Position numbers and translations under genes: made by a program
Source: an uncultured Verrucomicrobiae bacterium
Lineage (GTDB): Bacteria > Verrucomicrobiota > Verrucomicrobiia > Chthoniobacterales > JAFAMB01
Reading direction: 5' to 3'
DNA length: 64,000 nucleotides
NCBI GenBank assembly: GCA_963762565.1
Contig: CAVXLD010000001.1
Location: 224,001-288,000, forward strand
Shown here: positions 625 to 64,000 of the stretch, in pieces
How positions within the stretch are numbered: the stretch's first letter is position 1
How the letters are laid out: the number at the start of each line of letters is the position of its first letter
Notes under the pieces: model-generated
What the model was told of the DNA's origin: nothing
Seen by the model: the letters and a program-made list of their open reading frames with translations, nothing else
Databases searched by the model: none

Positions 625-774
625 CCGGACTCGCCTTAGGCTCGTCCGCAATGACAAATGACAAATAACAGATGACAGATTGGGAATTCCTTCGGTCACA
701 CGCATTTCTATTTCGGAGATTTGTCATTTGTAATTTGTCATCTGCCATTCCGAACGAGCCTCAGGCGAGTTCGG
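625..774. repeat. Family A palindromic element, copy 2
   Basis: Same arms, heptamer arrays and core as 43-190. Confidence 0.9.
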
Positions 775-1516
775 CTTCTGTGAGCGCTGCTAACACCCGT
801 TCCTTCCAAGCCGTGAAGGCATGATCCTGTCGAGAACGAGGCCGAGGAAGATCGATCCGAAATTGGCGATGAATTTGTCCGGGGCGTCCCTTGATCACAA
901 CGATGCTGTCGGATAATGCGACCGCTTCTTCAATATCGTGCGTCACGAAAAACATGGTCAACGAATGCCTCGCAAAAAGCTCCATCAAATGGTCTTGCAG
1001 CCGGCTTCGGGTGAGAGCATCGAGGGCGCTAAACGGCTCGTCCAGCAATAGAAGAGATGGTTTTCGCACTAAGGCTCTGGCTATCGCCACCCTTTGAGCC
1101 ATCCCTCCCGACAATTGGCGCGGGTAATAATGGGAGAAGGATTCTAAACCAACTTGCTCCAGAATTTCCTTCGCCAACGCTCCGATCCGGCTATGCCCGG
1201 CCGGGCCGAACCCGAATTCCACATTTTGGCGAACGGTCAGCCACGGCATGAGTCGGGGCTCTTGAAACACGACGCCTAGGTTGGGGCGTTCGGCATTTGG
1301 CGTTTGGCGTTCGGCGTTCGGCGCACGATCGCTATCCCAGCGGATTTCTCCGGAGGTCGGGCGCTCAAGTCCAGCTAGAATCCGCAACAGCGTGCTTTTG
1401 CCCGAGCCGGTCGTACCCACCATCACCGTGACTTGTTGCGGCTCGATCGAAAGCTCAAGATTAGCAATCACCAAAGCGTCACCGTAAGCCTTCGTTATCT
1501 GATCGATTCTTACCAT
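761..1516 (-). CDS. ssuB: Sulfonate/nitrate/taurine-type ABC transporter ATP-binding subunit
   Basis: Walker A GTTGSGKST, VFQEPRLMPW, LSGGMAQRV, LLLLDEPFSALD; start moved to ATG 1516 because the upstream ORF extension is repeat-derived. Confidence 0.85.
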   Translation of the reverse strand: MVRIDQITKAYGDALVIANLELSIEPQQVTVMVGTTGSGKSTLLRILAGLERPTSGEIRWDSDRAPNAERQTPNAERPNLGVVFQEPRLMPWLTVRQNVEFGFGPAGHSRIGALAKEILEQVGLESFSHYYPRQLSGGMAQRVAIARALVRKPSLLLLDEPFSALDALTRSRLQDHLMELFARHSLTMFFVTHDIEEAVALSDSIVVIKGRPGQIHRQFRIDLPRPRSRQDHAFTAWKERVLAALTEAELA

Positions 1517-1517
1517 T

Positions 1518-1655
1518 GAACTCGCTGAGGCTCCTTCAAGATGACAATGACAGATGACAGATGACAAATGTCCGAAATAGACCGCGCGTGACCGAAGGAT
1601 CTCCCAATCTGTCATCTGTCATTTGTCATTCCGAACGAGCCTCAGGCGAGTTCGG
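1518..1655. repeat. Family A palindromic element, copy 3 (core inverted relative to copies 1 and 2)
   Basis: Core tgtccgaaatagaccgcgcgtgaccgaaggatctcccaatc is close to the reverse complement of the copy 1/2 core. Confidence 0.88.
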
Positions 1656-5338: not shown

Positions 5339-5632
5339 TTAGTGATTAGTGATTGGCGATGGCGCTGGTCGGGCGAGGCTCCCGAAAGAACTAAAGTCTC
5401 TAACGAAGATCCAGACGTTTCGGCCTGAAAGAGTTTGTTAGGCCGATCGGTGTGCCGAGCCGTGGTTCCGCGCGTAACCCGGCTCGGCGCGTTGCTAGAA
5501 GTAGCATGCCTTCTTAATTCGGAATGCGAAGGGAGATGGAAAATCACAGAGTCTTTCGGGAGCCTCGCCCTACCAACGGCGTCTCATCCACCATCACCTC
5601 TCACCAATCACCAATCACTTCTCACCTTCTCC
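5335..5632. repeat. Family D REP-doublet element (5366-5575) nested within inverted heptamer arrays (gtgatta / tcaccaa-tcacttc)
   Basis: ggtcgggcgaggctcccgaa...gccgagccg...cggctcggc...ttcgggagcctcgccctacc, flanked by heptamer tandems. Confidence 0.85.
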
Positions 5633-37409: not shown

Positions 37410-37697
37410 GGAGGGGAGCCGCTTTGTCAGACGCTAGCTGTGTTCGGTCGGCAGCAGGCGGCTCCCGGGAATAGCCCAGCGCGTTCTATTTATCCAGCGC
37501 CTACTTCGTTGAAGCACCGACACGGACAGAGCCTATAGAGCTGGATTACCTGGCAGACGTTACCGGGAGCCGCCTGCAAGCAACCGATAGACCTGCCAAC
37601 TTACAAAGCGGCTCCCCTCCGGCGCCGCGTCGCCGATACGCCCATTCGCCCTTTCGCCCGTTCGCCGATACGCCCACACGCCGACACGCCCATACCC
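37410..37697. repeat. Family C doublet, copy 3 (37410-37620), followed by an octamer tandem (cgccgata/cgcccatt)
   Basis: Conserved C blocks, then cgccgatacgcccattcgccctttcgcccgttcgccgatacgcccacacgccgacacgccc. Confidence 0.88.
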
Positions 37698-37756
37698 CCC
37701 AGCTACCTCTGGACGCCACGTGCCCATTATGGCAGGCTCCGCCGCAACATTCCTTC

Positions 37757-39774: not shown

Positions 39775-41436
39775 ATGATCCTGAATATCTTAAGGGTAGG
39801 GTTGATCGTTTTCGAGGTCCTGCTCATCTTCAATCTGCTCATCATCGTCCACGAGCTTGGACACTTTCTCGCAGCTCGCTGGCGAGGCTTACATGTAGAC
39901 AAATTTGGCGTCTGGTTCGGCCGGCCAATTCTAAGGCGCACGATCGGAGGCGTTGAGTTCTGCCTGGGTTGGATTCCGGCCGGCGGATTTGTGTTGCTGC
40001 CTCAGATGGCCACCATGGAAGCCGTTGAAGGTAAGTCCGGGGTCAGCGGCTCAGATCTGCCACCCATCAAGCCGCTTGACAAAATCATTGTGGCGGCGGC
40101 GGGGCCGCTCTTCAGTTTTTTGTTAGCCTTGGTTTTCGCAACGATCGTCTGGATCGTCGGCCGGCCAATGGCTGAAGCGGATACTACCACGACCATTGGC
40201 TACGTGGCGCCGGACGCGCCGGCCGCCAAAGCCGGTTTCAAACCGGGCGACAAAGTTCTGGAAGTCGATGGTCATCCTGTAAATCGGTTCAATGGGATGG
40301 TCGACAGCATTACCTGGTACGTCGTCCGCAGCGAAGGAGCGACTATCCCATTTAAAATTCAGCGGGGCGATCAGATTCTGAGCATCAATTCTGGCTTCGA
40401 TAAGCCGGAGACCCCGGGTTGGGAACGAAAGTCATTGCGCCAAGTAGGGTTGCAACCGGCTATTACGCCGATTGTTGCCAAGGTAGCGCCAGATTCGGAA
40501 GGCGCGAAAGCCGGGCTGGAAGCAAACGACGAAGTCGTCGATATCGGTGGCCAGAAGATTTACTACCTCAAGCAAATATCCGAATGGGCTCAGAAACATT
40601 CCGGACAGCCTCTCCCACTTACGGTCATCCGCGACGGACGAACTTTGCACATCGATATGCAGCCGGGTCGTCTCGTGATTGCCGGCATTATCCAGAATAG
40701 CCCGGCGGATGTTGCCAAGTTGCAGAAAGGCGACGTAATCATCGCGCTGAACGATCAGCAGATCTATGACATCGATGCGATCAACCAGTATGTGGATGCC
40801 AATCCGGACAAAGTACTCACTCTGACGGTTCGACGCGAGGGCCAAACACTCTCCGTCCGGATCCGGCCCGCGGTACCGGATCGCCCCCTGTCGCAGGAAG
40901 GAAAAACGCATCCGATCATTGGTTTCTACACTGGCGAGAGTACGGACGGAATTACCTGGGATGCGGGCGGCAAATTGACGACTGCTCACATCTCCCCGAT
41001 TGAACAGGTCTCTGCCGGAGTAGAGACAATCACGAACACGATCGGTGCGCTGCTCTCACCACAGTCGGATATCAAGCTACAGCACATGAGTGGCCCGGTG
41101 ATGATCATGCGGACCTATTACCTGCTGTTTCAAAGCGAATTTGGTTGGCAGCTGGCCCTATGGTTCAGCGTCGTATTCAACATCAACCTGGCAATCATTA
41201 ACCTGCTGCCTATCCCGGTGCTTGACGGTGGGCATATTCTCTTGGCCATCCTGGAAGCAATCCGGCGGCGGCCGCTCAATATTCGGGTGCTCGAAGTGTT
41301 GCAGGGCGCCTGCGCGATCTTGCTGATTGGATTCATGCTCTACGTCTCCTTCTATGATGTGCAGGACTCCGTTGGCGGGAACCAGAAACCGGCGTTTAAT
41401 CATCCCGCCCAACCTGCGCCTTCCGACAACCAATGA
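39775..41436 (+). CDS. rseP: RIP metalloprotease RseP (site-2 protease with multiple PDZ domains)
   Basis: HELGH, AGP, NLLPIPVLDGGH; dxr-rseP-ispG synteny. Confidence 0.93.
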   Translation: MILNILRVGLIVFEVLLIFNLLIIVHELGHFLAARWRGLHVDKFGVWFGRPILRRTIGGVEFCLGWIPAGGFVLLPQMATMEAVEGKSGVSGSDLPPIKPLDKIIVAAAGPLFSFLLALVFATIVWIVGRPMAEADTTTTIGYVAPDAPAAKAGFKPGDKVLEVDGHPVNRFNGMVDSITWYVVRSEGATIPFKIQRGDQILSINSGFDKPETPGWERKSLRQVGLQPAITPIVAKVAPDSEGAKAGLEANDEVVDIGGQKIYYLKQISEWAQKHSGQPLPLTVIRDGRTLHIDMQPGRLVIAGIIQNSPADVAKLQKGDVIIALNDQQIYDIDAINQYVDANPDKVLTLTVRREGQTLSVRIRPAVPDRPLSQEGKTHPIIGFYTGESTDGITWDAGGKLTTAHISPIEQVSAGVETITNTIGALLSPQSDIKLQHMSGPVMIMRTYYLLFQSEFGWQLALWFSVVFNINLAIINLLPIPVLDGGHILLAILEAIRRRPLNIRVLEVLQGACAILLIGFMLYVSFYDVQDSVGGNQKPAFNHPAQPAPSDNQ

Positions 41437-43301
41437 AGAATCCAGCGTACTGTCCCGATCCTTGGGTTTATCAGCGCCGGCGTACGCGGGTGGTTAACGT
41501 CGGCAACGTCGGTGTTGGTGGCGACAACCCGATCCGAGTCCAATCCATGTTGACCTGTGACACCATGGACACAGAAACCAGCATTCAGCAGACTCTGGAT
41601 TTGGTGAAGGTCGGTTGCGAAATCGTCCGGATCACAGCCCCAACCGTAAAAGACGCCAAGAACCTAAGATTAATTAAACAAGGTTTGCTCGAGCGGGGTT
41701 GCGATGTGCCAATCGTGGCCGATATCCACTTCAAGCCGGAAGCCGCTCTTGAAGCCGCGCAATGGATCGAAAAGGTTCGGATTAATCCCGGGAACTACGC
41801 GGACTCGAAGAAGTTCGTCGTCAAAGAATATTCTGACGAACAATATCAAGACGAGCTGGCGCGGATCCGCGGGCGATTCACTCCGTTGGTCAAACTGTGC
41901 CAAGAGCGCGGCGTCAGCATGCGGATCGGCACCAATCACGGCTCCCTCAGCGACCGTATCATGAACCGATACGGTGATACGCCGCTTGGCATGGTGGAGA
42001 GCGCGCTAGAGTTTGCGCACATCGCTCGCGACCTCGGCTACCACGATTTCATCTTCTCCATGAAAGCAAGTAATCCGAAGGTGATGATCTGCGCCTATCG
42101 CTTGCTGGTTTCTCGGCTATACGCAGAAGGACCGGATTGGAATTATCCGCTGCATCTCGGCGTGACTGAGGCCGGCGATGGCGAAGACGGTCGGATTAAG
42201 AGCGCCATCGGGATTGGTTCGCTCTTGGCCGATGGCCTCGGCGACACCATCCGGGTTTCATTAACCGAGGACAGCGTACACGAGATTCCCGTCGCCCAGG
42301 CGCTAGTGGCCCCTTATAACGCCGTCAACGCCGCGAGCGCCGAAAACGGAACCAATCACGAATCACCAATCACCAATCACCTTACCCTTCTCACCTCTCA
42401 CGTCTCACCTCTCACTTCTCACTTCGATACGCTCCCTTTCGATCCATTTCACTTCGAGAAACGGGAGACCGAAAAAATCCAAGTGAACGGCGTGGATCTC
42501 GGGGGTGAGGAATTGATTCGAGTAGCCATATCTCAGGGCAACTTTGAAAAGATTGCGCATAAGGTCGACAAGATGGGCGATTTCAAACCCGAAATCGTCG
42601 TAGAAGAATCCGGGGTTGTAGCTGTCGATCCGAGAGATGAGGCCAAGATTGCTGAGATCAACAGCAACTCACAACCCTGTTTGGTGACGGTCTCCGATCA
42701 CATCGGTCTGCCCACCATAACGGCATTTCGACTCCTGGCAGCTCAGCTACAAGCGCGACATCCAATCCTGTTGAAGGACACCCTGGTCCCATCATCGGAC
42801 GGTCAAAAGGATTTTGTACAAACGTTGCTGGAATCGGCGACCAATCTTGGGGCACTGATCTGCGACGGTATCGGTGACGCGATCCTGGTGCAGGGAGAAC
42901 AAGCGCCCGGCCAATCATTGCGGCTGTCTTACAATATTCTCCAAGCTGCCGGCAGCCGGATCTTCAAAACCGATTACGTTGCCTGCCCTTCCTGTGGCCG
43001 GACGTTGTTTAACTTGCAAACCACCACGGCCAAGATCAAGGCCTCCACCACTCATCTGAAAGGAGTCAAGATCGCGATTATGGGGTGTATCGTAAATGGC
43101 CCTGGTGAAATGGCTGACGCCGATTTTGGCTACGTCGGCGGCGCTCCTGGCAAGGTGAATCTTTACGTCGGTAAAACCGCCGTGAAGTTTAATATCCCCG
43201 AAGCAGAAGCCGTCGATCGGTTAGTCGATCTAATCAAAGAGCACGGCCGCTGGGTGGAAAAACCGGTCGAGGCTGCTGAAGCAGCTGAAATGGTGGCATA
43301 G
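41433..43301 (+). CDS. ispG: (E)-4-hydroxy-3-methylbut-2-enyl-diphosphate synthase, long form
   Basis: IRVQSM, VADIHF, RINPGN, NHGSLS, LHLGVTEAG, ACPSCGR, MGCIVNGPGE. Confidence 0.96.
   Translation: MKNPAYCPDPWVYQRRRTRVVNVGNVGVGGDNPIRVQSMLTCDTMDTETSIQQTLDLVKVGCEIVRITAPTVKDAKNLRLIKQGLLERGCDVPIVADIHFKPEAALEAAQWIEKVRINPGNYADSKKFVVKEYSDEQYQDELARIRGRFTPLVKLCQERGVSMRIGTNHGSLSDRIMNRYGDTPLGMVESALEFAHIARDLGYHDFIFSMKASNPKVMICAYRLLVSRLYAEGPDWNYPLHLGVTEAGDGEDGRIKSAIGIGSLLADGLGDTIRVSLTEDSVHEIPVAQALVAPYNAVNAASAENGTNHESPITNHLTLLTSHVSPLTSHFDTLPFDPFHFEKRETEKIQVNGVDLGGEELIRVAISQGNFEKIAHKVDKMGDFKPEIVVEESGVVAVDPRDEAKIAEINSNSQPCLVTVSDHIGLPTITAFRLLAAQLQARHPILLKDTLVPSSDGQKDFVQTLLESATNLGALICDGIGDAILVQGEQAPGQSLRLSYNILQAAGSRIFKTDYVACPSCGRTLFNLQTTTAKIKASTTHLKGVKIAIMGCIVNGPGEMADADFGYVGGAPGKVNLYVGKTAVKFNIPEAEAVDRLVDLIKEHGRWVEKPVEAAEAAEMVA
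42318..42425 (+). repeat. In-frame 9-mer plus heptamer repeat insertion within ispG
   Basis: aacgccgtc aacgccgcg agcgccgaa aacgg, then accaatc acgaatc accaatc accaatc ... acctctc acgtctc acctctc acttctc; the same units are intergenic at 5590-5632 and 63775-63925. Confidence 0.85.
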
Positions 43302-43319
43302 TCCGGGAGAGATTGTTCG

Positions 43320-43420
43320 CCACGGCCTCGCAAGCGAGGCACCGCTCCACGGTTCCAACTGCATCTTGATGCCCGGCCCTAGTCCATCCATTTCGTGTCG
43401 ATTCGCGTCCATTCGTGGTT
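43320..43420. repeat. Family E single arm (43320-43352) plus family F 10-mer tandem (43388-43420)
   Basis: ccacggcctcgcaagcgaggcaccgctccacgg; catttcgtgtcgattcgcgtccattcgtggtt. Confidence 0.8.
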
Positions 43421-43450
43421 TAGTTTCACAAAGATCGGGATTCCGTTCTC

Positions 43451-44011
43451 ATGAGTGTTCGACCACATGCCCCACCGCTAACAGAGCAAGATTACTACAA
43501 TCTACCGGAAGGCAGCAGATACCAGCTAATCGAAGGTGATCTCTACATGGCTCCCGCCCCGAACCTTTACCACCAAACGATTCTCGGTAACCTAGCTTTC
43601 GCGCTCCGTTCCTATGTGGAACAGAATCCAATCGGTATCCTGTTCCAAGCTCCCACCGATGTTTTCTTCAGTCGGGAAAGCATCTGGCAGCCGGACCTTT
43701 TTATCGTGCTGAATTCTCGGCGACACATACTCACAATCAGGCGTTGCGAAGGAGCTCCCAATTTCATTGCCGAGATTCTATCTCCTAGCAGCCAAGACCT
43801 GGACTTACACACAAAAAAGGTAGTGTACGCTCGCGCAGGCGTCGACGAGTATTGGATTCTAGATCCAGAGAGCAACGAACTTTTGATTCATCGGTTTGAC
43901 GACAACCCAAACAATCCGATCGCTCGTCTCAAGCCGCCTGAGAAGGCCACTAGTTCTCTTTTCCCAGGATTAGCCATCGACTTAGACCACCTCTTCCGCC
44001 GGGTTATTTAG
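43451..44011 (+). CDS. Uma2 family (DUF820) PD-(D/E)XK endonuclease-like protein
   Basis: YQLIEGDLYMAPAP..HQ, QPDL, EILSPS...D...KK..YAR.GV.EYWILDP. Confidence 0.9.
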   Translation: MSVRPHAPPLTEQDYYNLPEGSRYQLIEGDLYMAPAPNLYHQTILGNLAFALRSYVEQNPIGILFQAPTDVFFSRESIWQPDLFIVLNSRRHILTIRRCEGAPNFIAEILSPSSQDLDLHTKKVVYARAGVDEYWILDPESNELLIHRFDDNPNNPIARLKPPEKATSSLFPGLAIDLDHLFRRVI

Positions 44012-62242: not shown

Positions 62243-63772
62243 ATGAAGATTAAGCGCGCCCTCTTATCCGTTTCAGACAAGACAGGGATCGCAGAGTTCG
62301 CCAGACACCTAAACGAACTAGGGGTAGAAATCATTTCGACCGGCGGCACCGCAGCCCTACTTAAAAGCGAATCGATCCCCGTTATGGAAATCGAGAAGTT
62401 TACCGGGTTCCCGGAGATCCTCGGCGGCCGAGTCAAGACGTTGCATCCGAAGGTTCACGGCGGTCTGCTTTACGTTCGCACAGATCCAGTCCATCAAGAG
62501 CAACTGTCAAAGAATGCCATTCAGCCGATCGATTTGGTCGCTGTGAATCTCTATCCATTCGAGCAGACGATCAGAAAACCCGACATCAAGCTGGAAGATG
62601 CTATCGAGCAGATCGACATTGGCGGCCCCTCGATGCTGCGCAGCGCGGCAAAGAATTATCGATTCGTAACCACCATCAGCGATCCGCAGGATTATGAAAC
62701 CGTTCTAAAAGAGCTCGAGGAACACGGAGGGGAAACGACGCTCGCATTGAGAGAGCAACTCGCGATCAAGGTATTCCTACTCACAGCTCGTTACGATAGT
62801 TCGATCGCCACCTACCTTAACCAGGAACAGGCTACGTCCGGTTCTTATGCAGTCTCGCTACCACTAGAGATGCGGCTACGTTACGGAGAGAACCCGCATC
62901 AAAGCGCCTCCCTTTATGGCCGGTTCAGCGATTTCTTCCAAAAACTTCACGGTAAGGAGCTCTCGTTTAACAATATCCTAGACATCAACGCCGCGGCTAA
63001 TCTCATCCGCGAATTCTCTGAGCCTACGGTTGCCATCTTGAAACACACCAATCCGTGTGGTGTGGGCAGCGATCCCGATTTGCGCGAGGCATGGGTCAAG
63101 GCTTTTGCGACGGACAAACAGGCGCCATTTGGCGGGATCATCATCTGCAACCGGCCGATGACGGAACCATTAGCCAGAGCCATAGCTGAAATCTTTAGCG
63201 AAGTCATCATTGCTCCTGACTTTGAGCCGGAGGCAAGAGCGCTCTTACAGAAAAAGAAGAACCTGCGGCTGATGAAATCGCTCGAGTGGTTCAACTCAAC
63301 TCGGCAAGAACCGGATGTCCGTTCGGTCATTGGCGGCGTGTTGGTGCAACAGAAGGATTTTACTGCTTTACCGCGTCCCGAGGACCACGTGGTCACGAAA
63401 CGACCGCCCACCGCCGATGAAATGGCAGCGATGCTCTTCGGATGGAAAGTCGTAAAACATGTTAAATCGAATGCCATCGTTTACGCGCGCAAGGATCGGA
63501 CGCTCGGGATCGGAGCGGGGCAGATGGCTCGGGTTGACTCCTCTCGGATCGCGGCTTGGAAAGCGGGCGAAGCCGGCCTGTCGCTTGCAGGAAGCGCCGT
63601 TGCCAGTGATGCTTTCTTTCCGTTTCCGGACGGCCTGGTTGCGGCTGCGGATGCCGGGGCTACGGCTGCCATCCAGCCGGGAGGTTCCGTCCGCGACGAA
63701 GCTGTGATTCAAGCAGCCGACGAACATAATCTGGCTATGGTCTTCACCGGAATTCGAAATTTCCGACACTAA
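62243..63772 (+). CDS. purH: Bifunctional AICAR transformylase / IMP cyclohydrolase
   Basis: [58 protein letters not shown]. Confidence 0.97.
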
Positions 63773-63774
63773 CC

Positions 63775-63925
63775 AACGCCGTGATCGCCGACATCGCCGT
63801 CAACGCCGTGAACGGAATCTGGAGACACTGGGTTAACAGACTGCGCTTGGTTCCTGCATGCGCCGGCGGGTAGCGCTATCGGATACTTCTCACCTCTCAC
63901 GAATCACTTCTCACTTCTCACGTCT
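63775..63925. repeat. 9-mer tandem (aacgccgtg type) and heptamer tandem (tcacttc type)
   Basis: aacgccgtg atcgccgac atcgccgtc aacgccgtg aacgg ... cttctcacctctcacgaatcacttctcacttctcacgtct. Confidence 0.8.
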
Positions 63926-63933
63926 AAGTCAGT

Positions 63934-64000
63934 ATGCCAAAACTTGGTGTTAATATTGATCACGTCGCCACCCTGAGACAGGCTCGTTACTTGGGGTTGC
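63934..64000 (+). CDS. pdxJ: Pyridoxine 5'-phosphate synthase, 5' end (runs off the window)
   Basis: MPKLGVNIDHVATLRQAR is the characteristic PdxJ N-terminus. Confidence 0.9.
   Translation, partial: MPKLGVNIDHVATLRQARYLGL

What the first reader, a model, noticed from the sequence alone, without database searches (positions are those of the whole stretch)
42318..42425. Intergenic-type repeats sit in frame inside ispG (36-codon insert)
Seen: 108 nt encoding NAVNAASAENGTNHESPITNHLTLLTSHVSPLTSHF consist of aacgccgnn 9-mers followed by acnnmtc heptamers. The same two unit types in the same order occur non-coding at 63775-63925, and the heptamers also at 5590-5632. The insert lies just after the TIM-barrel domain and keeps the frame. 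Inference: repeats also land in genes and persist only in tolerant linkers, creating new protein sequence in a normally essential MEP-pathway enzyme, analogous to Rickettsia palindromic elements.
Basis: partly seen in the sequence, partly recalled or inferred. Interest (0 to 1): 0.78.

Follow-up and report, generated by a model that had tools for sequence, protein, structure and literature searches.

The report
Intergenic repeat words inside ispG linker
A soil bacterium's essential isoprenoid enzyme IspG carries, in its floppy inter-domain linker, an in-frame block of the same short tandem repeats that fill the genome's gene spacers, and close relatives carry different repeats at that spot, so it is tolerated junk that makes new peptide, not a new system.

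Summary
Window 42318-42425 is 108 nt, codons 296-331 of a 622-aa three-domain IspG. It consists of about three and a half 9-mers (NNCGCCGNN), then ACCAATC x4.4 and CTTCTCA x5.6 heptamers. These families occur at hundreds of mostly intergenic loci in this genome. A near full-length twin of the block (82% over 106 nt) lies at C7:107825-107927.

The block sits between the last helix of the TIM-barrel A domain and the extra A* domain. AlphaFold2 gives pLDDT below 50 for residues 306-329. Relatives in other genera have a repeat-free 17-23-residue linker against 41 here, so the net gain is about 24 codons, not 36.

Within the genus, the linker is the only internal indel site of the protein. It is filled by different repeat families (heptamers, 8-mers, hexamers) in lineages whose core proteins are 98-99.8% identical to the window's. 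One variant equals the window DNA minus three single bases.

Best reading: passenger repeat DNA, tolerated because these units have no stop codon in any frame, the length stays a multiple of three, and the site is a permissive loop.

This scan had already noted an in-frame heptamer array in another gene of this genome. Interest is moderate: a new variant of a known kind.

The parts
41433..43301 (+). ispG (gcpE), three-domain form (A TIM barrel, A* extra domain, B 4Fe-4S domain), 622 aa
   Evidence: ORF. Pfam GcpE matches at E 7.9e-126. PDB 3noy aligns to residues 13-288 and 497-601, leaving about 289-496 as the extra domain. C518, C521, C552 and E559 are invariant in 23 sequences.
42318..42350 (+). 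9-mer module: AACGCCGTC AACGCCGCG AGCGCCGAA AACGGA (codons 296-306, NAVNAASAENG)
   Evidence: Read directly. The same module with the same ...GCCGAR AACG junction precedes heptamers at C7:107906, C5:306048 and C7:101437. Residues 291-300 have mean pLDDT 87 and lie in the modelled helix 284-304.
42351..42381 (+). Heptamer module 1: ACCAATC x4.4 (CAATCAC/CACCAAT family, the commonest heptamer family of the genome)
   Evidence: TRF score 55. The family AATCACC has 208 TRF rows genome-wide. The unit has no stop codon in any frame on this strand and TGA on the other strand.
42382..42425 (+). Heptamer module 2: (C)TTCTCA / CCTCTCA / CGTCTCA x5.6 (TCTCAC family), reaching the conserved DTLPFDPF anchor
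   Evidence: TRF 42387-42425, score 57. The order CAATCAC then TCTCAC is seen 15 times against 1 reversed among neighbouring arrays. pLDDT is below 50 for residues 306-329.
63774..63925 (+). Non-coding counterpart: 9-mers (63774-63814), about 70 nt of unique DNA, then TCTCAC-type heptamers (63885-63925)
   Evidence: It lies between ORFs ending at 63772 and starting at 63934.
5589..5627 (+). Non-coding TCAC-type heptamer array (CACCTCT CACCAAT CACCAAT CACTTCT ...)
1285..1323 (-). Second in-frame heptamer array of the window (GGCGTTC x5.6) inside an ABC ATPase gene (ORF 761-1615, minus strand; residues about 97-110 within ABC_tran 50-194)
   Evidence: Already noted by this scan (e1-2369424).

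Best explanation
The 108 nt are passenger repeat DNA. They form one stop-free 'arm' of the genome's own modular short-tandem-repeat elements: a 9-mer module, then a CAATCAC heptamer module, then a TCTCAC heptamer module. The block sits in the disordered junction between the A and A* domains of a three-domain IspG.

It is tolerated for three reasons:
1. On this strand the units have no stop codon in any of the three frames.
2. The total length is a multiple of three.
3. This junction is the only internal place where the protein accepts length change.

The block is written and rewritten by ordinary repeat dynamics. These are unit gain and loss by slippage, small indels that are harmless as long as the frame is restored inside the array, and copying or exchange of whole modules with the hundreds of dispersed arrays of the same families (ectopic recombination or template switching).

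Shown: the anatomy, the placement, absence of the block outside the genus, turnover among close relatives, and the existence of twins elsewhere in the genome.

Inferred: the copying mechanism, neutrality of the encoded peptide, and that the protein retains the segment.
For: Anatomy and family membership:
- The 120 nt around the insert hit 57 places in G000. The best is C7:107825-107927 at 82% over query 7-112.
- The tripartite composite with the same junction occurs at 4 loci by pattern search. ispG is the only one deep inside a long ORF.

Placement:
- PDB A-domain homology ends at residue 288 and B-domain homology starts at 497.
- The AlphaFold2 model has mean pLDDT 80.3, pLDDT below 50 at 306-329, and no secondary structure at 305-348.

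Absence elsewhere:
- In 29 relatives' IspG the segment is shorter and repeat-free outside the genus.
- Linker length is 41 here against 17 (g8) and 23 (g7).

Turnover:
- In 23 genus-level sequences the only indels outside the linker are at the extreme N- and C-termini, and 401 of 583 core columns are invariant. The linker ranges from 21 to 48 residues.
- On a tree built from the core alone, heptamer-type and 8-mer-type linkers each need 5 changes, and starred branches force at least 4.
- P0013 (core 98.3% identical) has 9-mers plus 8-mers and no heptamers.
- The linker of P0006 (core 99.8% identical) is reproduced exactly by removing three single bases from the window DNA.

Fast evolution of the peptide:
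- By my count, P0005 differs at 5 of 26 insert residues, while its core is 96.5% identical.

Stop logic:
- CACCAAT, TCTCACC and TCTCACT are open in all frames in sense and carry TGA in antisense.

Generality:
- In 11 of 20 array-bearing ORFs tested, Pfam domains lie on both sides of the array or span it.
- mutS shows the same site-specific turnover among 6 genomes.

Depletion inside genes:
- Only 5 of the 98 ORFs with at least 7 in-frame residues of TCAC-type array hold it internally. ispG has the longest.

Independent occurrence:
- Contigs of a soil run cover 41433-42380 with 4 differences, and also 42377-42460.
- Proteins P0001-P0005 carry the block.
Against: - No RNA or protein evidence shows that the segment is kept in the mature enzyme. 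The one RNA run laid gave only short, low-identity pieces.
- Import is not proven. Sister species carry single seed units at the same place (G002 CCAATCACG, G004 TCTCAC, G001 ACCAATC), and the 9-mers start on the conserved Tyr-Asn-Ala codons. Growth in place from seeds could therefore give the same picture.
- In G004 the linker's modules match dispersed loci only module by module: 15 loci for the 8-mer part, 1 for the 9-mer part, and none over the full length.
- The three deletions inferred for P0006 rest on its protein alone. They could be assembly errors of its source.
- The linker labels on the tree were assigned by eye from the peptides.
- Gene positions genome-wide come from a crude greedy ORF map, not a gene caller.
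Confidence: 0.75

Rival explanations
1. Purely local origin. The arrays grew in place by slipped-strand mispairing from short seeds already present in the ancestral linker codons, with no transfer of sequence from other loci.
For: - The 9-mers begin exactly at the conserved TAT AAC GCC (Tyr-Asn-Ala) codons.
- Single units of CAATCAC or TCTCAC occur at the same place in G001, G002 and G004.
- G004's linker has no full-length twin in its own genome.
- According to the introduction of PMC4679880 (passages read), which summarises the survey of Mrazek and colleagues, heptanucleotide units are the most abundant class of long simple-sequence repeats in most of the prokaryote genomes that survey looked at, and polymerase slippage was proposed to explain this.
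Against: - Slippage amplifies whatever sequence is present locally. Yet the units here are the same few families found at hundreds of other loci, in the same module order (15 against 1) and with the same 9-mer-to-heptamer junction as three other loci.
- One of those loci is 82% identical over 106 nt.
- Whole modules are replaced between proteins with 98.3% identical cores.
Confidence: 0.15
2. Insertion of a discrete mobile element of the MITE or Rickettsia-palindromic-element type, which transposed into ispG in frame.
For: - The outcome matches RPEs: repeat DNA in frame in unrelated metabolic genes at structurally permissive sites (PMC10969869, passages read).
- Earlier notes of this scan read the intergenic hairpins as REPIN/MITE-like (not tested here).
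Against: - There is no fixed-length unit: linker lengths range from 21 to 48 residues with different module sets.
- Only one arm is present. The complementary arm would put TGA in the frame.
- No terminal inverted repeat or target duplication was seen in the sequence.
- Spacers between intergenic arm pairs are unique, not a conserved element body.
Confidence: 0.05
3. Selected function. The segment is an adaptive tether, or a nucleic-acid signal (protein-binding TCAC words, or translation pacing between domains), kept for the benefit of the cell.
For: - The site is occupied by some repeat in every genus-level sequence seen.
- In two more distant lineages the short linker is itself built of other heptamers (L094, L095).
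- The A* domain's role is unknown (PMC10663253, passages read).
Against: - Content, length and even reading frame inside the block change between near-identical proteins.
- Other genera function with 17-23 residues.
- No Rfam family matches 41000-43800 at E up to 1.
- The model shows no structure there.
Confidence: 0.04
4. Assembly artefact: a repeat-induced chimera in a metagenome-assembled genome.
For: Short-read contigs break inside the arrays.
Against: - The ORF is intact.
- Contigs of a soil run bridge both edges: 41433-42380, and 42377-42460.
- Five database proteins (P0001-P0005), three of them without a listed source, carry the same block, some with small differences.
Confidence: 0.01

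Closest known systems
Long simple-sequence repeats with 5-11-nt units, especially heptanucleotides, in prokaryote genomes. These include the survey of Mrazek and colleagues (as summarised in PMC4679880), GGGAATC in Xanthomonas and GGGGAYT in Nostoc/Anabaena (PMC4692102), and TAACTGA in Beggiatoaceae (PMC4679880).
   Same: - Dispersed head-to-tail heptamer arrays of a few unit types.
- They are mostly intergenic, lie close to gene ends, and are sometimes paired as inverted repeats.
- A minority lie inside ORFs. In PMC4692102, 89-93% are intergenic in the xanthomonads and 68% in Anabaena. In PMC4679880, 24 repeat sets contain or overlap coding regions (passages read).
   Different: - Here several unit families of different period (9, 7, 7) are strung together as one composite.
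- The composite recurs at other loci.
- At one site of an essential enzyme, whole modules are swapped among near-identical strains.
- The units are G-poor on the coding strand, so they are not quadruplex formers.
- In the passages I read I saw no case of a 7-nt array kept in frame inside a housekeeping enzyme.
Rickettsia palindromic elements (Ogata et al. 2000, as reviewed in PMC10969869)
   Same: Repeat DNA inserted in frame in unrelated metabolic genes. It adds a peptide at positions judged compatible with fold and function (passages read).
   Different: RPEs are discrete palindromic elements of about 150 bp, in ten families, each with a conserved peptide. The ispG block is a single arm of tandem modules, variable in length and content, with no palindrome inside the gene.
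Contingency loci / phase-variable genes with intragenic simple-sequence repeats
   Same: A repeat unit that is not a multiple of three lies inside a coding region, so single-unit changes shift the frame.
   Different: The gene is single-copy and presumably essential. All 26 full-length sequences compared are open. The arrays are open in all three frames, so they buffer frame changes rather than switch the gene off.
Three-domain IspG (A, A*, B) of Verrucomicrobia, Chlamydiae, Bacteroidota and plants (Liu et al. 2012, as cited in PMC10663253)
   Same: Same architecture. The A* domain lies between the TIM barrel and the 4Fe-4S domain.
   Different: The A/A* junction is lengthened here by about 24 residues of repeat-encoded, predicted disordered peptide.

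Membership tests
IspG / GcpE, three-domain form | GcpE family match over the TIM-barrel and 4Fe-4S parts | tested here: met
   Pfam PF04551 matches at E 7.9e-126 in 2 stretches. PDB 3noy, 2y0f and 4s38 match at E 1e-42 to 1e-56.
IspG / GcpE, three-domain form | Extra domain (A*) inserted between the A and B domains | tested here: met
   Two-domain structures align to residues 13-288 and 497-601 only. The model shows a folded alpha/beta unit at 349-506. Database relatives carry PF26540 beside PF04551.
IspG / GcpE, three-domain form | Cluster ligands: three Cys and one Glu (the ligand set is recalled, not from a call) | tested here: met
   C518, C521, C552 and E559 are invariant in 23 sequences.
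Long simple-sequence repeats (heptanucleotide class) | Head-to-tail copies of a 5-11-nt unit | tested here: met
   TRF finds period 7 with 4.4 and 5.6 copies at 87-91% matches. The 9-mers are seen by eye only.
Long simple-sequence repeats (heptanucleotide class) | The same unit is over-represented genome-wide beyond chance | tested here: met
   There are 1590 period-7 TRF rows genome-wide, and the AATCACC family has 208. Contig C3 gives 293 rows against 14 after shuffling. The reversed control pattern gives 0 hits.
Rickettsia-palindromic-element / MITE-like in-frame insertion | Discrete element of conserved length and sequence | tested here: not met
   The linker is 21-48 residues long with different module sets in 23 genus-level sequences. 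The best twin is 82% identical with different copy numbers.
Rickettsia-palindromic-element / MITE-like in-frame insertion | Palindromic or terminal-inverted-repeat structure | tested here: not met
   Only the C-rich arm is present. TRF finds no complementary array in or beside ispG. The complementary units carry TGA.
Rickettsia-palindromic-element / MITE-like in-frame insertion | In-frame insertion in a conserved gene at a structurally permissive site | tested here: met
Phase-variable contingency locus | Repeat-number change switches the reading frame and hence expression on and off | tested here: not met
   All 26 full-length relatives are open despite different arrays. The units have no stop in any frame. 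Only one full-length ispG match was found in G000, and no HMG-CoA reductase.
REPIN/RAYT system | Associated RAYT transposase and REP doublets | not tested
   This was raised only in earlier notes of the scan. It was not examined here because the ispG block has no hairpin partner.

The most novel reading that the evidence does not exclude
The A/A* junction of IspG, and similar loops in mutS, ctaA and other housekeeping genes, act as landing pads. A genome-wide module-exchange process copies whole repeat 'words' between dispersed arrays and genes. Because the surviving words are open in all three frames, they buffer frameshifts. They therefore let essential enzymes acquire and rewrite stretches of new peptide within populations that are more than 98% identical elsewhere. 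This would be a fast, repeat-driven route to the birth of linkers and peptides in bacteria.
Probability: 0.3. Interest if true: 0.6.

Novelty: new variant of a known kind. Interest (0 to 1): 0.42.

Why it matters
- The case shows how far selfish or neutral repeat DNA can enter an essential, highly conserved enzyme. In 23 close sequences, 401 of 583 core columns are invariant.
- It identifies which sequence property lets the repeat stay: units without stops in all three frames, a length that is a multiple of three, and a disordered junction.
- It marks the A/A* junction of three-domain IspG as freely extensible, which is useful for engineering or tagging this enzyme.
- It offers a natural series of linker variants for measuring repeat turnover rates in uncultured soil Verrucomicrobiota.
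- It is not a new mechanism or system.

Tried and rejected
- **Read laying.** Contigs of soil runs break inside the arrays. No indel or joint was listed. The RNA run X20 (share 0.05) gave only short pieces at low likeness, so it shows nothing about expression or retention of the block. One contig of run X5, with 24 differences over 865 bases, stops fitting at 42343. Its 38 further letters were not shown, so nothing was built on it.
- **** (proteome scan for repeat peptides) used a faulty pattern and is discarded. One search is the corrected count.
- **9-mer plus 8-mer composites.** A pattern search in G000 found 0. The pattern may have been too strict.
- **Rfam.** No match on 41000-43800 at E up to 1.
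- **Gene-fusion idea.** I asked whether arrays had fused neighbouring genes (TP_methylase+CbiJ, KsgA+NUDIX). This is rejected. The KsgA+NUDIX frame is open across both parts in four relatives (G002, G004, G012, G016). The TP_methylase+CbiJ frame is open in G002, the only one of five relatives that matched.
- **Arm pairs as element bodies.** The spacers between intergenic arm pairs are unique, so the pairs do not define a conserved mobile element body.
- **Gene orientation.** Array families show no preference for gene starts over gene ends.
- **Literature.** Searches found no description of these repeats in Chthoniobacterales or of in-frame heptamer arrays in ispG. The one paper sharing the terms was seen only as a listing.
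Full report
**1. The observation**

Window 42318-42425 reads AACGCCGTC AACGCCGCG AGCGCCGAA AACGGA, followed by ten and a half heptamers of the form ACNNNTC. It lies in frame in the ORF 41433..43301 (+), 622 aa, as codons 296-331, NAVNAASAENGTNHESPITNHLTLLTSHVSPLTSHF. The ORF is IspG: Pfam GcpE matches at E 7.9e-126.

Tandem Repeats Finder calls ACCAATC x4.4 at 42351-42381 and CTTCTCA x5.6 at 42387-42425. It does not call the three and a half imperfect 9-mers, which are visible by eye.

- 63774-63814 holds 9-mers. About 70 nt of unique DNA follow, then heptamers at 63885-63925. This lies between two ORFs.
- 5589-5627 holds heptamers.

**2. The genome-wide background**

The window is G000:C1:224001-288000 of a 6.1-Mb, 15-contig assembly. 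Names that sources give to near-identical proteins, and earlier notes of this scan, place it in soil Chthoniobacterales, Verrucomicrobiota.

TRF on the whole genome gives 5382 rows. Of these, 1590 have period 7, 680 period 8 and 848 period 9. They fall into a limited set of unit families: AATCACC 208, AGCTAGG 170, AAATGAC 117, AAGTGAG 86, ACCTCTC 71. Contig C3 has 293 period-7 rows against 14 after shuffling codon-sized blocks.

Among 2589 non-overlapping arrays, neighbours within 400 bp are inverted copies of the same unit 364 times and direct copies 7 times. The strand order is fixed, for example [GTGATTG]n ... [CAATCAC]n. The DNA between the two arms is unique. The arrays show no preference for gene starts over gene ends, and many lie within about ten bases of an ORF end.

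On a crude greedy ORF map covering 85.8% of the genome, 1877 of 3729 merged arrays lie wholly outside ORFs.

The CACCAAT family (three units, at most one mismatch) hits G000 244 times. It is found in all 5 other genomes of the genus (3-82 hits) and all 3 of genus g8 (2-23 hits). It is found in none of the other 32 relatives searched. The reversed control pattern hits nowhere.

This background had already been noted by the scan. I re-derived what I use from it.

**3. Where the block sits in the protein**

Solved two-domain IspG structures align to residues 13-288 (TIM-barrel A domain) and 497-601 (4Fe-4S B domain). This leaves about 289-496 as the extra A* domain. Verrucomicrobia are known to have this domain (PMC10663253, passages read).

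An AlphaFold2 model built from 23 orthologues has mean pLDDT 80.3. It shows:
- a last A-domain helix at 284-304;
- no secondary structure at 305-348;
- pLDDT below 50 at 306-329.

The 9-mer-encoded residues 296-304 lie in the modelled last helix (284-304). The 25 heptamer-encoded residues form a predicted disordered loop.

**4. Relatives**

IspG was found in 40 of 41 genomes searched. I aligned it from 30 loci.

Outside the genus the stretch between EIPVA..L...Y and DPF is short and repeat-free at the DNA level. After the conserved Tyr the linker is 41 residues here, 17 in two g8 genomes and 23 in one g7 genome. It is mostly 17-21 residues in the more distant metagenome loci, with exceptions up to 43. 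The net gain is about 24 codons, not 36. The repeats also overwrite the ancestral linker.

Within the genus every species differs, with linkers of 21, 29, 34 and 37 residues. The DNA shows other families of the same repeat vocabulary. G004, G005 and G003 carry 9-mers followed by 8-mers of the GATACGCC/CACACGCC type, encoding ADTPTRPY. G002 carries 9-mers and then other sequence. The 8-mer family is intergenic in the window at 37631-37699. It matches 15 other loci in G004.

**5. Turnover among close relatives**

A search restricted to residues 270-360 returned 2061 proteins. I read 20 of them.
- P0001-P0004 carry the window's block with one to three substitutions.
- P0005 has a longer 9-mer part.
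- P0013 has a core 98.3% identical to the window's. It has 9-mers plus 8-mers and no heptamers.
- P0060 and P0090 have a poly-Ser block.

I built a maximum-likelihood tree from the core alone, with the linker removed, from 26 rows. Two partial sequences were dropped. On this tree the heptamer-type and the 8-mer-type labels each need 5 changes, and starred branches force at least 4. P0013 lies inside the starred window clade. The labels were assigned by me from the peptides.

In the 23 genus-level rows the only indels outside the linker are at the two termini, and 401 of 583 columns are invariant.

P0006 has a core 99.8% identical to the window's. Its linker is reproduced exactly by deleting three single bases from the window DNA. 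About 18 residues are therefore read in shifted frames, and the frame is restored before the array ends. This rests on the protein alone and could reflect errors in its source assembly.

**6. Is it a copy?**

A pattern search finds the tripartite composite at four loci of G000: ispG, C5:306048(-), C7:107906(-) and C7:101437(-). The composite is three or four NNCGCCGNN units, then AAC(G), then CAATCAC units, then TCTCAC units. Only ispG lies deep inside a long ORF.

BLAST of the 120 nt around the block against G000 gives 57 matches. The best is C7:107825-107927, 82% identical over 106 nt. A match in ctaA is 82% identical over 78 nt.

Among neighbouring arrays, CAATCAC precedes TCTCAC 15 times against 1.

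This favours copying of a preformed arm. However, sister species hold single seed units at the same position, and G004's linker has no full-length twin in its own genome. Growth in place cannot be excluded.

**7. Why this strand, and how general it is**

CACCAAT, TCTCACC and TCTCACT have no stop in any frame. Their complements contain TGA.

Of 5866 greedy ORFs, 98 hold at least 7 in-frame residues of TCAC-type array:
- 52 are ORFs under 150 aa;
- 35 hold the array in the first 80 residues, probably upstream of true starts;
- 6 hold it in the last 40 residues;
- 5 hold it internally.

ispG has the longest internal array, at 25 residues. Of the other four:
- ctaA and mutS are solid.
- One lies before the first Pfam domain of an alcohol dehydrogenase.
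- One is a 7-residue match inside a BNR domain.

I tested 20 ORFs that carry arrays of any family. In 11 of them Pfam domains span the array or lie on both sides of it:
- within a domain: ABC_tran, CitG, MdcE, MutS_III, ACR_tran, COX15-CtaA;
- between domains: a U32 peptidase, a methylase-CbiJ protein, a GH38 mannosidase, a UvrD-type helicase-nuclease, and KsgA-NUDIX.

Two more are probable and seven are undetermined.

In mutS the same site holds TCTCACC heptamers in G000 and G004, another repeat in G002 and G005, and nothing in G001 and G003.

**8. Essentiality**

Only one full-length ispG match exists in G000. No HMG-CoA reductase was found in the 93.7%-complete genome. This is consistent with dependence on the MEP pathway but does not prove it.

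**9. Comparison with what is known**

- Heptanucleotide simple-sequence repeats are a recognised abundant class in prokaryotes. They are mostly intergenic, lie near ORF ends, are sometimes paired as inverted repeats, and have an intragenic minority (PMC4692102 and PMC4679880, passages read).
- In-frame repeat insertions in metabolic genes are the hallmark of Rickettsia palindromic elements (PMC10969869, passages read).
- The ispG block shares the outcome with RPEs but fails their structural criteria: no fixed length and no palindrome.
- It goes beyond a plain simple-sequence repeat in being a composite of three unit families that recurs elsewhere and is swapped module by module.
- I found no paper describing these repeats in Chthoniobacterales, or such an insert in ispG, in the searches.
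- The scan itself had already reported an in-frame heptamer array in an ABC ATPase of this genome (e1-2369424).

**10. Verdict**

- the net gain is about 24 codons;
- arrays are not confined to inter-domain linkers;
- the block is RPE-like in outcome only.

The block is most likely neutral passenger DNA in a permissive junction. Import versus growth in place remains unresolved. Interest is moderate.

Noticed in passing
G000:C10:125766-125810 (minus strand; locus L035, residues about 383-398): mutS carries an in-frame TCTCACC heptamer array (TSHLSPLTSHLSP) inside Pfam MutS_III. G004 shares it, G002 and G005 have a different repeat at the same site, and G001 and G003 have none. It is striking that a mismatch-repair gene hosts slippage-prone DNA.
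   Followed up: partly
G000:C7:107825-107927 (minus strand; loci L063, L149): This is the closest twin of the ispG block (82% over 106 nt). It forms the last ~25 codons of a 183-aa ORF with no Pfam match. It is read in the same frame and gives a similar peptide (…AENANHQSPLTNHHSPITSHFSLLTSH).
   Followed up: partly
G000:C2:33964-34041 (minus strand; locus L040, residues about 182-199): ctaA (COX15-CtaA) holds a block of CAATCAC and TCTCAC units in frame in the middle of the protein. The block is 82% like the ispG insert over 78 nt.
   Followed up: partly
L094 and L095 (metagenome loci, IspG linker): In two more distant lineages the short 17-18-residue linker is itself built of other heptamers (CTCAACT-type, TTCAATN-type). 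This junction may therefore attract repeats repeatedly and independently.
   Followed up: no
window 43260-43298 (C-terminal tail of IspG): The C-terminal tail varies between EAAEAAEMVA and EAAEVMA among near-identical proteins. Together with two columns at the extreme N-terminus, it is the only indel site outside the linker.
   Followed up: no
window 42315-42440: Summed contig depth from three soil metagenome runs rises from tens to thousands on the repeat block only. These heptamer words are therefore very common in soil assemblies, though it is not shown in which organisms.
   Followed up: no
genome-wide; e.g. window 42389-42423: By recall, the unit TCACCTC equals the anti-Shine-Dalgarno tail of 16S rRNA. 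Its complementary arrays (GAGGTGA) would be tandem Shine-Dalgarno-like sites if transcribed. No test was made.
   Followed up: no
G000:C14:40361-40449 (L038) and G000:C4:18729-18761 (L049): Arrays fill the linkers of two fused proteins (TP_methylase+CbiJ and KsgA+NUDIX). The KsgA+NUDIX frame is open in four relatives, and the TP_methylase+CbiJ frame is open in the one relative that matched. The repeats therefore lengthen existing linkers rather than fuse genes.
   Followed up: yes
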